NCBI RefSeq assembly: GCF_009914755.1
Contig: NC_060935.1
Length of the DNA stretch: 64,000 nt
Source of the DNA: the human T2T-CHM13v2.0 reference genome, Homo sapiens
Direction: 5' to 3' (one strand)
The stretch's first letter is position 1. Every line of letters starts with the position of its first letter. The notes below the pieces were generated by a model, which saw only the letters and a program-made list of their open reading frames with translations, was not told the origin of the DNA and ran no database searches. Made by a program: the position numbers and the translations under genes. Below, piece after piece: positions 43,870 through 47,990 of the stretch.

Positions 43870-45315
43870 TCCAAATATTGAAGGGAACCTTAAAAGTTAG
43901 CTACTAGCATTTCTGTACCAATATCCAGCTAGGTGGTCAACTATGCTCTGCTTGAACACCTCCAGCGCTGGTCAGCTCACCGCCACTCGGAGATCTCAGT
44001 ATACCTTTAGACAACAGTGTTAGAAAATTCAAACTTACTTATTCCAACCTGGCTTCATACCCTTTCATTTATTAGTCCTACTTCCACTCTATGAATACAA
44101 AGAAAAATGTAACTCTTTTTCAAATAATCGTTCTTCAAATGTTCAATACCACTAGTATGGTCCCCTAGAGTCCTCATTTGTTCCAGGTCAACAATTCTTT
44201 GTTCTTCTGACTGCTCCTCATATAAAATGAATTCAAATCTCTTCTATGTTTAATTACTTGTACTCTAAAATTGTTCCTTTTTTTTCCTCTTAAACTGTGG
44301 TATTCTCAATCAAAGGTAAAACTGCAAGTGGGACTCTGAGTAGCTTAGATAAAAATGTGCCTATCACATCCCTTACATCAGTTAATTTTCCACCTTAATG
44401 TATTCTGAGGTCATACTTGAGAGGTAGAAAGAGAAAAAAGAGTATGGATTCAGAGAGAAAGAGATCTGAGATTGGTAATCCAGCCCCAACACTCACTACT
44501 ATGTAGGCAAGTTATTTAACCTCTGAGCTGAAAACTTCAATTTCCAAAATGAGAAAATTAAATTTAAACATTAAGGATGTATACAAGATTTACAGATAAA
44601 TGTGTACAAAGTCTCTAGCAATGCCTGACACATAGTAGACATTCAACACGTTACTATTATTTTTGGTATTTTGGTAATGCATATTAGTGATTAATCTACA
44701 TTGCAATTGTTGTGACCTAAAAATCCAAAATCCATTATATGACACATTTTAGTAGCACAACTATTTTATTGTGAAACCAGTGACATAAATATACCTTCAC
44801 TTATATGCCTTTACTTCTTTCAAAAATTAATCTACTGTTTCAGTTTCTTGAGTTCTTTATGGATAAAAATTCTGGAACCAAATATTTTAAATAATCTTCT
44901 CAATTTTGAACAAGGTAAAATTCTTATGAGCATGACACTTGTTTAAATAAGAAACACGGGCACTCCCCAGTACACACACAGGTTGAAGGAAGAGTCTAAT
45001 GTCTCTAGATAAATATTGCCAAAAGTTGATCCTTCAAATCCAGCCCTTGGACTTCCTGTGAATTAGCTTATTTATTATAAATCATCCTCATATTGTTCCA
45101 CCTAGTCAAAAAGATGTCGTAAGAGACTCTGTCTCACATCATGTTGAAATCCAAACATGTACTGTCTATACCTAGCCCATCAAAGAAGGAAATGATTGCA
45201 GCATTGGTGGTTCATTCTTGATGAACCCCTGAATTCTAATAATTATGATTACTTCCTTTTCTAAATGCTTACAAAATGTCTTCCTAATAATACTTTTCTA
45301 TTCTTGCCTAGAATT
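43870..45315 (-). mobile_element. CR1/L3 LINE fragments, interrupted by a MIR at ~44420-44655
   Basis: 'ctctgcttgaacacctccag...agctcacc', 'gttagaaaattc', 'tgttgaaatcca', 'ttcttgatgaaccc'. Confidence 0.6.
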
Positions 45316-45327
45316 TCAAAAAGCAGG

Positions 45328-46402
45328 TGTGATGGTTAATACTGAGTGTCAACTTGATTGGACTGAAGGAGCAAAGCATTGATCCTGGGTGTGTCTGTGA
45401 GGATGTTGCCAAAGGAGATTAACATTTGAGTCAGTGGGCTGGGGAAGGCAGACCCACCCCTAATCTGGTGGGCACCATATAATCAGCTGCCAGTGAATAT
45501 AAAGCAGGCAGAAAAACGTGAAGGGGTGAGACTGGCCTAGCCTCCCAGCCTACATCTTTCTCCCGTGCTGGATGCTTCCTACCCTGGAACATCGGACTCC
45601 AAGTTCTTCAGTTTTGGGACTCGGACTGGCTCTCCTTGCTCCTCAGCCTGCAGACGGCCTATTGTGGGACCTTGTGATCATGAGCCAAGGAATGCTCCAC
45701 CAATTTTCTAGGATGGAGACTAACAAAATCTGGCCTATGTTTACACACTTTACTCAAACAAGATCACAGCTATGCAAGCCAAAGACGCATATTGACCTTG
45801 CCCAGTGGAAGAACCAGGAAGATGTGGTCATTCATTCAACTCTGTGTGTAGTATTGGTGCTGTGTCCAAATTAGAAGCTAGCTGAGGCAGCTTGCACCAT
45901 CTTTTCTAGTTGAAATGGTGAACTGATAGGAAAACTAATGAGTAGAAAGAGTTCACAAAGAGGCCCTCCTCTGCCTTTCAAAAGGAAGGTCACCTGCACA
46001 TGTTTAAGGTGTCTCTGCACATGTCTCCACCCATTCATAAGAAAGCAAGTACAGTGTGGATTTCAAATGATGGGTAACTTCAGCTCCAGCTGATTTTTGA
46101 CAGCTGTGTTGTTGCTGTGGTATCCTTTTTTACACATGACGGTGACGGTTTCTGCTTCTCCCCATCCCCACAAAGGCTGTTGAACCACAGCACCAGGAAG
46201 CCTGAGAATGCTTAGGGCTCTAGCCCAGGCTTTGTACCAGGCTTTCTGGTGTGTGCCCTCCTGGTGACAGTGAAATTGAAGCTACTTATTCTCAGTGGTT
46301 TTTTTCTCTGGTCTTGAGTGAATGTGTCCACAGTTCATTATTTTCCAGTAGGAATGATTCCTTTTCTGCATTCACACTCCATAGAGAACCCTGACTAACA
46401 CA
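45328..46402 (+). mobile_element. MLT2A (HERV-L) LTR carrying a 700-bp foreign insert (45682-46381)
   Basis: Starts tgtgatggttaatactgagtgtcaac, ends tagagaaccctgactaacaca; TSD gcagg/gtagg. Confidence 0.9.
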
Positions 46403-47990
46403 GTAGGACTGTCTATTACTATGTACAACTAAGGGATGATGAGAAAATGGTTTCACATATCCCATTAACAGAATTTCTAATAAAGTAAGGAAGTATTTTT
46501 CAAACACATGTTATACAGAAAACTATTCCAGGACGATGCACATTTTTAAAACTTTTTATGTTTTTCAAATAAATTTGGGAATGGCTGAAACCATGAGAAT
46601 GTCTTGAAGATTTTAGCAGAGTTTTGCAGTTTTGCTTGTAGAGATCTTTCACCTACTTGGTTAGGTATATTCATACTTTTTGTTTGTTTGTTTGTTTGTT
46701 TGTTTTGCAGCTGTTGGGAAGGGGCTGAGCTCTTGATTTGATTCTTAGCTCAGTCACTGCGGGTGTATAGCAGTGCTACTATTTTTTGTACATTAATCCT
46801 GTATCCTGAAATTTACTGAATTTATTTATCAAATCTAGGAGTGTTTTAAATGAGTCTTTAGGGTTTTCTAGGTGTAAGATCATATCATCAGAGAAGTAAC
46901 AGTTTGATTTCCTCTTTATGGATTTGGATGCTCTTGATTTCTTTCTCTTGTCTGATTGCTCTGGCTAAGACTTCCAGTACTATGATGAATAGAAGTGGTA
47001 AAAGTGGGCACCTTTGTCTTGTTCCATTTCTCAGGGTGAATGTTTTCATCTTTCACCATTCCCCATAGTTGGCTGTGGGTTTGTCATACATGGCTTTTAT
47101 TACCTTAAAGTATGTCCTTTCTATGCTGATTTTCCTGAGGCTTTTAATCATAAAGTGATGCTGAATTTTGTCAAATGTTTTTTCTTTGACTATTGAGATG
47201 ATCACGTGATTTTTGTTTTTAATTCTATTTATGTGGTGTATCACATTTATTGACTTGTATATGTTAAATCAACCCTGCATCTCTGATATGAAACCATTTG
47301 ATCATAGTGTGTGATATTTTTGATATGCTATTTGATTTGGTTAGCTAATATTTTGTTGAGGATTTTTGCATCTATGCTCATCAGGGATATTGGTCTATAC
47401 TTTTCTTTTTAATTATGCCCTTTCCTGGTTTCAATATTAGGGTAATACAAGCTACATAGAATGATTTAGGGAGTATTCCCTCTTTATCTTTTGGAATCAT
47501 TTTAGAAGGATTGGTACCAATTCTTTGAATGTCTGATGCCATTCTGTTCTGAATTTATCTGGTCCTAGACTTCTAATTTTTGGAAATTTTGTAATTAGTC
47601 TTTTAATCTTGCTACTTGTTATTGGTCTCTTCACAGTTTCTATTTCTTTCTGGCTTAATCTAAGAGGGTTGTATATTTCCAGCAATTCATCCATCTCCTC
47701 TAGGTTTTCTAGTTTGTGTGCATAAAGATGTTTATAGTAGCCTTGAATGATCATTTGTATTTCTGTGGTATCGATCATAATATCTTCCATTTCATTTCTA
47801 ATTGAGCTTATTTGCATCTTCTCTCTTTTCTTGGTTAATGTGGCTAATGGTCTATACATTTTGTTTATCTATTTTAAGAACCAGTTTTTTGTTTCATTTA
47901 AATTTTGTATTTTTGGTTTGTTTCAATTTCATTTAGTTCTGCTATAATCTTTATTTCTTTTCTTCTGCTGGGTGTGGGTTTCGTATGTTC

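What the first reader, a model, noticed from the sequence alone, without database searches (positions are those of the whole stretch)
45328..46402. MLT2A LTR with 700 bp of foreign sequence joined at its splice-donor position
Seen: LTR sequence runs to ...ccttgtgatcat (45681). Then 700 bp of non-LTR sequence follows, then the last 21 nt of the LTR; the whole unit has TG...CA ends and a 5-bp TSD (gcagg/gtagg). The LTR's own gtgagt donor and AATAAA segment are missing. Known: MLT2A LTRs are early-embryo promoters that splice from this donor into chimeric RNAs. Inference: cDNA of a spliced chimeric or co-packaged cellular RNA recombined into the LTR. The insert strikes me as a cellular mRNA 3' UTR, but I cannot name the parent. 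The 5' junction could alternatively be 'tgag' microhomology.
Basis: partly seen in the sequence, partly recalled or inferred. Interest (0 to 1): 0.75.

Follow-up and report, generated by a model that had tools for sequence, protein, structure and literature searches.

The report
HERV-L LTR carrying a spliced-in AK4 exon
A solitary retroviral end-repeat (HERV-L, MLT2A1 type) on chromosome 11 has 700 bases of the last exon of the adenylate kinase 4 gene joined exactly at the repeat's own splice donor, so it preserves an ancient virus-to-gene spliced RNA that was copied back into DNA.

Summary
Window 45328-45681 is the first 354 bases of an ERV-L LTR, 91-92% identical to 39 other scored copies. 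Bases 45682-46381 come from AK4 on chr1, about 90% identical to the gene. Bases 46382-46402 are the LTR's last 21 bases. The unit has TG..CA ends and a 4-of-5 flank repeat.

The 5' junction is an exon-exon junction.
- The LTR stops where 18 of 29 relatives read GTAAGT or GTGAGT. This is the MLT2A1 donor published "around position 350" (PMC8559712).
- AK4 starts at the first base of its last exon, just after the intron's ...TTTTTCAG.

The 3' junction is a 5-base overlap (TAGAG) with no poly(A).

Private divergence is 0.049-0.061 for the insert and about 0.034 for the LTR. The difference is not significant (p=0.27). Both fit the family's published age of 45-65 My.

Best reading (0.55): HERV-L reverse transcriptase copied 21-26 bases of U5, jumped onto an LTR-initiated, spliced LTR-AK4 RNA, ran to its 5' end, then made the normal R-mediated transfer. 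The provirus later collapsed to a solo LTR.

Main rival (0.25): repair of a resident LTR templated by the same chimeric cDNA.

It is single-copy, and no donor LTR remains at AK4. I class it as a new member of LTR-mediated retroposition.

The parts
45323..45327 (+). Left copy of the 5-bp flank repeat (GCAGG).
   Evidence: 4 of 5 bases equal to the right copy. Chance of this is 0.016.
45328..45681 (+). LTR bases 1-354 of an ERV-L (HERV-L, MLT2A1-type) LTR: U3 plus the 5' part of R. It ends at the exon side of the LTR's splice donor.
   Evidence: 39 other scored copies at 91-92% identity; 18 of 29 relatives continue with GTAAGT or GTGAGT. PMC8559712 passages: donor 'around position 350' in MLT2A1.
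45498..45503 (+). TATAAA in the LTR, at LTR position 171-176, upstream of the transcription start.
   Evidence: PMC8559712 passage: TATA boxes lie upstream of start sites at consensus positions 205-215.
45528..45681 (+). Inferred LTR first exon (transcription start to donor, about 154 nt). This is the part the chimeric RNA would have carried.
   Evidence: four other genomic loci hold LTR-like DNA only from relative-LTR position 196-208 to 356-366. Two of them begin with the bases that sit at window 45528-45529 (my reading). The bounds are inferred, not measured at this locus.
45682..46381 (+). AK4-derived segment. It runs from the first base of AK4's last exon for about 700 nt: the end of the coding region, then 3' UTR. 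It is cut off in the 3' UTR and has no poly(A).
   Evidence: K2P distance to AK4 is 0.094. There are 34 private substitutions in 689 compared sites.
46382..46386 (+). TAGAG, shared by the AK4 3' UTR and the LTR's U5 end. This is the 3' junction overlap.
   Evidence: AK4 and three pseudogenes read ...CCATAGAG. (relatives read ..TAGAGAAC..). Chance of an overlap of 5 or more bases is 0.0046.
46382..46402 (+). Last 21 nt of the LTR (end of U5), ending in CA.
46403..46407 (+). Right copy of the 5-bp flank repeat (GTAGG).

Best explanation
This is a solo LTR left by a HERV-L (MLT2A1-type) provirus whose LTRs already carried the AK4 piece when it integrated.

Shown:
- The LTR stops exactly at its own canonical splice donor.
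- AK4 starts exactly at the first base of its last exon.
- The other junction is a 5-base overlap 21 bases from the LTR's end.
- There is no poly(A).
- The unit has intact TG..CA ends and a 5-bp flank repeat.

Inferred:
1. An LTR of this family sat upstream of AK4's last exon in an ancestral simian germ line or early embryo. It made an RNA running from the LTR start site to the donor, spliced to AK4's last exon.
2. Inside a HERV-L particle, minus-strand synthesis started at the primer-binding site and copied the last 21-26 bases of U5.
3. It then switched template at TAGAG onto the AK4 3' UTR of that RNA, and ran back through the splice junction to the RNA's 5' end, which is R.
4. It made the ordinary first-strand transfer through R onto U3 of a genomic RNA. 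One non-homologous switch is enough.
5. Both LTRs of the product read U3, 5' R, AK4, end of U5. They lacked the poly(A) signal, which fits the lack of daughter copies.
6. Integrase made the 5-bp repeat, and LTR-LTR recombination later left the solo LTR.

A variant gives the same product: the spliced RNA was the read-through genomic RNA of a provirus lying in AK4.
For: - 5' junction. The window reads ...GTGATCAT|GAGCC. After ..CAT or ..CCT, relatives read GTAAGT (13 of 29) or GTGAGT (5 of 29). The AK4 gene reads ...TTTTTCAG|GAGCCGAGG, while AK4P1, P2 and P3 carry the previous exon before GAGCC. The exon map puts the last intron at chr1:65102861-65104051.
- Print. In passages of PMC8559712, MLT2A1 starts lie at consensus 205-215, donors 'around position 350', with GT-AG sites, in 4- to 8-cell embryos of three simians. 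The window's LTR stops at its base 354.
- Chance. The rough chance that two random breakpoints hit both the donor and an exon start is about 1.5e-5.
- 3' junction. It is a 5-nt TAGAG overlap, with chance 0.0046. There is no poly(A), and no AATAAA in the unit.
- U3 is present. LTR bases 1-354 are continuous with relatives. By contrast, four other loci that carry the same start-to-donor exon lack U3.
- Ends. TG..CA ends and a 4-of-5 flank repeat, with 9 of 15 relatives showing the same.
- Age. The insert's private branch is 0.054-0.061 by my three-point arithmetic on the distances, and 34 of 689 = 0.049 by parsimony. The LTR's is 0.034, with a relatives' mean of 0.048. The difference is not significant, p=0.27. 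So the LTR is not older than the insert. Both fit the 45-65 My given for MLT2A insertion (PMC8559712 passages).
- Copy number and context. It is single-copy and solo, with no ERV-L internal DNA beside it.
- Family. DNA just upstream of a related 3' LTR encodes RNase H-like (E=2e-11), weak integrase zinc-finger, and dUTPase (E=2.3e-7) pieces, in that order.
Against: - No LTR of this family lies in chr1:64955001-65112000, which covers 70 kb upstream of AK4 through the gene's end. The donor LTR must therefore have been lost, never fixed, or farther away.
- No sister copy and no orthologous locus could be examined. The order 'LTR first, insert later' is therefore not excluded.
- The age comparison is weak. 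It rests on about 12 inferred changes in 354 nt against 34 in 689, and the 29 relatives are the closest of 4516 candidates, which biases the LTR estimate low.
- Packaging of the chimeric RNA and the exact step of the switch are inferred, not shown.
- No G-to-A excess marks the insert: 7 G>A against 6 C>T.
- Repair of a resident LTR from the same chimeric cDNA would give the same sequence.
Confidence: 0.55

Rival explanations
1. Later repair. An ordinary solo MLT2A1 LTR was already at this site. A break between its donor and its last 26 bases was repaired using cDNA or RNA of an LTR-AK4 spliced transcript from another LTR copy. The roughly 150-nt LTR exon gave homology on one side. The other side was closed by the 5-base TAGAG overlap, with loss of about 55-75 nt of LTR.
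For: - It yields the same junctions, the same lack of poly(A) and the same flank repeat.
- Spliced LTR-exon RNAs of this family were reverse-transcribed in the germ line by some route. Four loci hold the start-to-donor exon without U3.
- No sister copies exist.
Against: - It needs a break in a short target, homologous invasion by a cDNA, and microhomology joining. That is more steps than one template switch.
- The LTR is not measurably older than the insert: 0.034 against 0.049-0.061, p=0.27.
- The 3' joint keeps just the U5 end that an integrase needs. That is expected if integration selected the product, and incidental under repair.
Confidence: 0.25
2. No splicing. An ordinary co-packaged AK4 RNA, or pre-mRNA, was captured by two microhomology template switches, as in published LTR-mediated retroposition. 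The 5' switch happened by chance to fall at the exon start and at the LTR donor.
For: - One base (G) is shared at the 5' joint. The intron end TCAG resembles the LTR's TCAT, which is why blastn ran the gene match back to window 45678.
- LTR copies that natively read CATGAG.. exist. One is an 81%-identical relative. Another is one MLT2A1-like copy among the 23 LTR-like rows. With such a source, GAG would be a 3-base overlap.
Against: - None of the 29 closest relatives reads CATGAG; 18 of 29 read GTAAGT or GTGAGT.
- With those sources the joint would need an added 2-base loss.
- The double coincidence has a rough chance of about 1.5e-5.
- The position is the published, used donor (PMC8559712).
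Confidence: 0.08
3. An L1-made processed pseudogene fragment, or a DNA-level duplication of AK4 or an AK4 pseudogene, landed in an old LTR.
For: AK4 has at least six L1-type pseudogenes annotated by RefSeq.
Against: - The insert has no poly(A), no AATAAA, and no long flank repeat around it.
- LTR bases were lost rather than duplicated at the site.
- The processed pseudogenes have no AG acceptor before GAGCC, so they could not give this joint by splicing.
- No other AK4-like locus has LTR flanks.
- The window copy lies about as far from the gene (0.094) as from its young pseudogenes P1 and P3, and farther from P2 (0.123). It is not nested with any older pseudogene.
Confidence: 0.03

Closest known systems
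LTR-mediated retroposition (Tan et al. 2016, PMC5131818; abstract, section 6 and passages read)
   Same: - A host mRNA piece lies between discontinuous parts of one LTR element.
- It is truncated at the 3' end, with no poly(A) and no L1 hallmarks.
- A fusion point shows microsimilarity.
- The integrase-recognised ends are kept.
   Different: - The published model uses two microsimilarity switches, with the host piece usually inside the element. Here one joint is a canonical exon-exon junction made from the LTR's own donor, so only one non-homologous switch is needed.
- The whole capture lies inside one LTR.
- The paper reports three human cases, listed in its Supplemental Table 8. I could not see that table, so I cannot say whether this locus is one of them.
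HERV-K capture of FAM8A1 (Jamain et al. 2001; seen only as cited in PMC5131818)
   Same: A human endogenous retrovirus carries a piece of a host gene, with microsimilarity at the fusion points.
   Different: It involves a different retroviral class and a different host gene. I did not read that paper, so junction details cannot be compared.
Classical retroviral transduction of cellular genes (5' joint by read-through and splicing, 3' joint by non-homologous recombination during reverse transcription; recalled textbook model, no paper read here)
   Same: The logic is the same: a viral donor spliced to a host acceptor at the 5' side, and an illegitimate template switch at the 3' side.
   Different: The captured piece is a non-coding-sized exon fragment inside the LTR of an env-less endogenous element. 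It is not a gene in the viral body, and it was fixed in the germ line.
MLT2A1-initiated chimeric RNAs of 4- to 8-cell embryos (PMC8559712 passages; review PMC13690279 passages; PMC10616205 passages)
   Same: The start region, the donor at about LTR position 350, GT-AG joints, and the 'conserved LTR head plus variable tail' layout are the same.
   Different: Those are RNAs. This is a DNA copy of one such joint, with U3 and the U5 end restored around it.
Retroposed LTR-first-exon fossils found here (L065, L067, L068, L070)
   Same: They carry the same LTR exon, from about position 196-208 to about 356-366, followed by foreign sequence.
   Different: They lack U3 and have unrelated DNA upstream. 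The tails tested in L065 and L068 are high-copy repeats. Their ends were not reached within 1 kb, so their mode of insertion is not shown.

Membership tests
ERV-L / HERV-L LTR of MLT2A1 type | TG..CA termini and a 5-bp target-site repeat. | tested here: met
   The unit begins TGTGATGG and ends CTAACACA. The flanks GCAGG and GTAGG agree at 4 of 5. Nine of 15 relatives with both ends found show at least 4 of 5.
ERV-L / HERV-L LTR of MLT2A1 type | Close similarity to a multi-copy LTR family. | tested here: met
   39 other scored copies at 91-92% identity over bases 1-354, from 4516 first-look candidates of which 40 were scored.
ERV-L / HERV-L LTR of MLT2A1 type | Relatives flank an internal region whose pol ends in a dUTPase after integrase, which is the ERV-L layout. 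| tested here: met
   Six of 29 relatives share about 500 bp of upstream DNA. Open pieces upstream of one of them hit RT_RNaseH_2 (2e-11), Integrase_H2C2 (0.003, below the cut-off) and dUTPase (2.3e-7, above the cut-off), in that order. The layout is from passages of PMC1224870 and PMC5753468. A first try on another, truncated copy gave 0 of 10 pieces with a hit.
ERV-L / HERV-L LTR of MLT2A1 type | Length near 444 bp (MLT2A1) rather than 549 bp (MLT2A2), and a single donor near position 350. | tested here: met
   Eleven of 15 relatives with both ends found measure 427-469 nt. Four are longer, with TA-repeat growth visible in some. The donor follows base 354. The published lengths and donor positions are from PMC8559712 passages.
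ERV-L / HERV-L LTR of MLT2A1 type | Assignment by RepeatMasker or Dfam against the curated family model. | not testable with these tools
   No repeat library was on hand. The subfamily name rests on length, donor position and print.
LTR-mediated retroposition (Tan 2016) | A host mRNA piece flanked on both sides by parts of the same LTR element, with a gap of more than 20 bp in the element. | tested here: met
   LTR 1-354, then AK4, then the last 21 nt of the LTR. About 55-75 nt of LTR are absent.
LTR-mediated retroposition (Tan 2016) | No L1 hallmarks: no poly(A) tail and no long target-site duplication around the insert. | tested here: met
LTR-mediated retroposition (Tan 2016) | Microsimilarity at both switch points. 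| tested here: inconclusive
   The 3' joint has a 5-nt overlap. The 5' joint shares only 1 nt and coincides with donor and acceptor. I read it as a splice joint, not a switch.
LTR-mediated retroposition (Tan 2016) | An RNA intermediate shown by loss of the parent's introns. | tested here: not met
   The piece lies within one AK4 exon, so no parental intron is spanned. The evidence for RNA is the LTR-to-exon junction instead.
LTR-mediated retroposition (Tan 2016) | The whole locus is absent from outgroup species. | not testable with these tools
   No other mammalian genome was available.
L1-made processed pseudogene | A 3' poly(A) tail and flanking target-site duplications of about 7-20 bp. | tested here: not met

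The most novel reading that the evidence does not exclude
HERV-L particles used the family's own LTR-initiated, spliced 'LTR head plus host tail' RNAs as templates. The shared R sequence let host exons ride into new LTRs with a single illegitimate switch. This locus would then be the first recognised fossil of a route that moved host exons next to a DUX4-type early-embryo promoter. It would also date use of the MLT2A1 donor to the time the family was spreading. A census of donor-joined LTR copies, with and without U3, might show it to be a class rather than a singleton.
Probability: 0.3. Interest if true: 0.7.

Novelty: new member of a known kind. Interest (0 to 1): 0.6.

Why it matters
Germ-line capture of host RNA by LTR elements is rare in humans: three cases were reported in PMC5131818. 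This locus adds a clean example from a different retroviral class.

It also carries something the published model does not require: a canonical splice junction between the LTR's own donor and a host acceptor, fixed in DNA. That gives physical evidence that the MLT2A1 start site and donor, now known from 4- to 8-cell embryo RNA, were already making LTR-to-gene RNAs tens of millions of years ago. It also shows that such RNAs were reverse-transcribed.

The locus offers a simple comparative test of whether the joining happened during retroviral reverse transcription or by later repair. It also adds an unannotated AK4-derived fragment to the gene's family.

Tried and rejected
- Donor LTR at AK4. 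Local blastn (word size 7, E<=0.01) with the window LTR and with one whole relative against chr1:65005001-65112000 and chr1:64955001-65005000 gave no LTR hit. The only hit was AK4's own sequence against the junction probe.
- Cytidine-deaminase signature in the insert. G>A 7 against C>T 6, with 2 of 34 changes at CpG. No signal.
- Different origin of U3 and R. The private branch is 0.039 for LTR 1-204 and 0.027 for 205-354. No contrast.
- Family naming from a first provirus. Ten open pieces from L052 gave 0 Pfam hits; that copy keeps under 1 kb of internal DNA. Another copy worked.
- 'Part of a described LTR' and 'a known repeat with its own poly(A)'. Rejected: the insert is AK4.
- The 'tgag' microhomology idea. 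Rejected as the simplest reading.
- The one-mismatch hit of the junction 21-mer on chr10. It is a chance 19-nt match with no LTR likeness.
- Papers. No paper holds both 'AK4' and 'MLT2A1'. PMC104094 is not held.
- Absolute dating. My conversion of 5-6% private divergence into roughly 40-60 My uses a recalled primate neutral rate and comes from no call. The 45-65 My figure is the paper's.
Full report
WHAT IS THERE.

I read window 44900-46900. RefSeq's masking marks only 45323-45697 as repeat and lists no gene or functional element nearby.

The unit 45328-46402 (1075 bp) has three parts.
- Bases 45328-45681 (354 nt) begin TGTGATGG. They match 39 other scored copies in the same genome at 91-92% identity over their whole length. 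The first look found 4516 candidates, of which 40 were scored.
- Bases 45682-46381 match ten other places. By the RefSeq gene table these are the AK4 gene on chr1 (90%) and the annotated pseudogenes AK4P3, P1, P2, P5, P4 and P6. There are also unannotated fragments on chr19 and chr20.
- Bases 46382-46402 match the last bases of related LTRs and end in CA.

The five bases on either side are GCAGG and GTAGG. The chance of at least 4 of 5 equal is 0.016. Nine of 15 relatives with both ends found show a 5-bp flank repeat with at least 4 of 5 equal.

THE 5' JUNCTION.

A local blastn of window 45200-46600 against the AK4-like loci places the homology at 45678/45683-46385/46386.

Aligning the junction with the gene and three processed pseudogenes gives these readings:
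- the gene reads ...GTTTTTCAG then GAGCCGAGG;
- the pseudogenes read the previous exon (...TATACAA) and then GAGCC;
- the window reads ...GTGATCAT and then GAGCC.

Mapping AK4P1 on chr1 gives five blocks. The last intron is at chr1:65102861-65104051, and a last block runs from there for at least 1.2 kb. The AK4 piece therefore starts at the first base of the last exon, after a normal acceptor.

On the LTR side, I printed 29 relatives as they stand. After ..CAT or ..CCT they read GTAAGT (13) or GTGAGT (5), and GT is present in 20 of 29. AATAAA follows within 40 nt in 20 of 29. Then comes a TA-rich stretch and an end like the window's.

The window's LTR therefore stops at the exon side of a canonical donor. 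The part carrying the intron side of the donor, the poly(A) signal and most of U5 is missing. The unit has no AATAAA or ATTAAA.

One base (G) is ambiguous at the joint. The rough chance that two random breakpoints fall at both sites is about 1.5e-5.

PRINT.

Passages of PMC8559712 (Genome Res 2021) give the following.
- Repbase lengths are 444 bp (MLT2A1) and 549 bp (MLT2A2).
- Start sites lie at consensus 205-215, with a TATA box upstream.
- Splice sites lie 'around nucleotide positions 350 in MLT2A1' and at 350 and 450 in MLT2A2, with GT-AG dinucleotides.

The window has TATAAA at LTR position 171 and stops at LTR base 354. Eleven of 15 relatives with both ends found measure 427-469 nt, which fits MLT2A1.

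Passages of a 2026 review (PMC13690279) and of PMC10616205 describe MLT2A1 chimeric RNAs with a conserved LTR head and variable tails in human embryos.

FAMILY.

Six of 29 relatives share their 500-bp upstream flank, so they are 3' LTRs. Open pieces upstream of one of them, each scanned apart, hit Pfam RT_RNaseH_2 (2e-11), Integrase_H2C2 (0.003, below the cut-off) and dUTPase (2.3e-7, above the cut-off), in that order just before the LTR.

A dUTPase after integrase is the ERV-L layout (PMC1224870 passage). Repbase pairs HERVL with MLT2A1 and MLT2A2 (PMC5753468 passages). No repeat library was available, so the subfamily name rests on length, donor position and print.

The window holds no ERV-L internal DNA next to the unit and no second copy of the LTR. 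It is a solo LTR.

THE 3' JUNCTION.

AK4 and its pseudogenes read ...CTCCATAGAG and then go on. Relatives of the LTR read ...TAGAGAACCC.... TAGAGAAC is found downstream of the donor in 11 of 29.

The window reads ...CTCCATAGAGAACCCTGACTAACACA. The overlap is 5 nt, with chance 0.0046. There is no poly(A). AK4's exon continues for more than 0.9 kb past this point in the gene and in AK4P1.

AGE.

K2P distances over the insert are:

| Pair | Distance |
|---|---|
| window - AK4 | 0.094 |
| AK4P2 - AK4 | 0.095 |
| window - AK4P2 | 0.123 |
| AK4 / P1 / P3 among themselves | 0.004-0.010 |

Three-point arithmetic on those distances gives a private branch of 0.054-0.061 for the window's insert and 0.033-0.040 for AK4 since then. 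This is my arithmetic. Parsimony within the AK4 family gives 34 private changes in 689 sites, or 0.049.

For the LTR I used pairwise distances only. The mean window-to-relative distance is 0.082 and the mean relative-to-relative distance is 0.096. The private branch is 0.034, with a relatives' mean of 0.048. The relatives are the closest 29, so these values are biased low.

Twelve of 354 against 34 of 689 is not significantly different, p=0.27. The LTR is therefore not measurably older than the insert. Both fit the family's published time of spread.

COPY NUMBER AND DONOR.

None of the other AK4-like loci has LTR flanks. The junction 21-mer is unique at 0 mismatches.

No relative of the LTR lies in chr1:64955001-65112000. 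This counts against a simple story, because the LTR that made the RNA is not there today.

A COMPARATOR FOUND ON THE WAY.

I ran a pattern of the 14 bases before the donor plus two filter positions. It gave 39 hits:
- the window itself;
- 7 Alu-like strings and 23 LTR copies with altered donor hexamers (both counts by my eye);
- 8 that I fetched.

Four of the eight have no LTR likeness. The other four hold LTR-like DNA only from relative-LTR position 196-208 to 356-366, with unrelated DNA upstream and foreign DNA after the donor. In L067 the likeness is 75% and runs a few bases past the donor.

The tails of L065 and L068 are high-copy repeats. These four look like retroposed copies of LTR-first-exon RNAs without U3. 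They show that the start site and the donor were used, and that such RNAs were copied into DNA.

They also sharpen what is special about the window's unit: it has U3 and the U5 end.

MECHANISM.

The best reading has six steps.
1. A spliced LTR-AK4 RNA existed.
2. In a HERV-L particle, minus-strand synthesis copied the last 21-26 bases of U5.
3. It switched at TAGAG onto the AK4 3' UTR.
4. It ran through the splice joint to the RNA's 5' end.
5. It then made the normal R-mediated transfer to U3.
6. Integration gave the 5-bp repeat, and LTR-LTR recombination left the solo LTR.

This needs one illegitimate switch. It explains the presence of U3, the retained U5 end, the lost poly(A) signal and the absence of daughter copies. 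The sequence facts are shown; the steps are inferred.

The main rival is repair of a resident LTR from the same chimeric cDNA. It gives the same sequence and cannot be excluded without orthologues.

A no-splicing double switch needs a rare LTR variant or an extra 2-base loss, plus a double coincidence. L1-type insertion is contradicted by the missing poly(A) and flank repeats.

COMPARISON AND VERDICT.

The closest described kind is LTR-mediated retroposition (PMC5131818). That paper reports three human cases, which are listed in a supplement I could not see. No paper in the library holds both 'AK4' and 'MLT2A1'.

This locus works like that kind. It differs in that the 5' joint is a splice junction from the LTR's own donor and the capture lies inside one LTR.

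I class it as a new member of a known kind, real and well preserved, with interest 0.6.

Noticed in passing
L065 (chr1:13437540-13439040), L067 (chr3:97648780-97650270), L068 (chr6:71962750-71964250), L070 (chr12:123247400-123248900): These four loci hold only the start-site-to-donor part of an MLT2A1-like LTR (relative-LTR position 196-208 to 356-366). Unrelated DNA lies upstream and foreign DNA follows the donor. They look like retroposed copies of LTR-first-exon spliced RNAs. The tails of L065 and L068 are high-copy repeats. In L068 the tail is in two blocks that lie about 530 nt apart at other loci.
   Followed up: partly
L009/L010 (chr19:10468981-10469689) and chr20:18400880-18400953: These are AK4-like fragments, 82-85% identical to the insert. 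The chr19 copy is in two pieces. No AK4 pseudogene is annotated within 20 kb of either in the RefSeq gene table.
   Followed up: no
window 45682-46381: This AK4-derived fragment is itself not annotated: RefSeq lists no gene in the window, and masking stops at 45697.
   Followed up: yes
L002 (AK4P3, chr12) and L004 (AK4P1, chr17, inside NF1): AK4P3 and AK4P1 differ from AK4 by only 0.004 and 0.010 over the 700 nt, so they are very young retrocopies. AK4P2 (0.095) is about as old as the window's piece.
   Followed up: partly
L023-L051 (related LTR copies): Many relatives carry expanded TA or CA/TA dinucleotide repeats just after the poly(A) signal, stretching some LTRs to 491-714 nt.
   Followed up: no
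L053 and L055 (DNA upstream of related 3' LTRs): In both, a second copy of the LTR lies only about 2.2-2.5 kb upstream of the 3' LTR. The shared internal DNA is 1.0-2.1 kb. These look like internally shortened proviruses.
   Followed up: no
L064 (chr11:92968500-92969300): This LTR relative is about 81% identical and reads CATGAGTCAAT at the donor place, with no GT directly after CAT. It also has extra sequence between LTR positions of about 295 and 284-361. It may belong to the longer sister subfamily.
   Followed up: partly
window 46683-46706: A short (TTTG)n run lies about 280 bp downstream of the unit.
   Followed up: no
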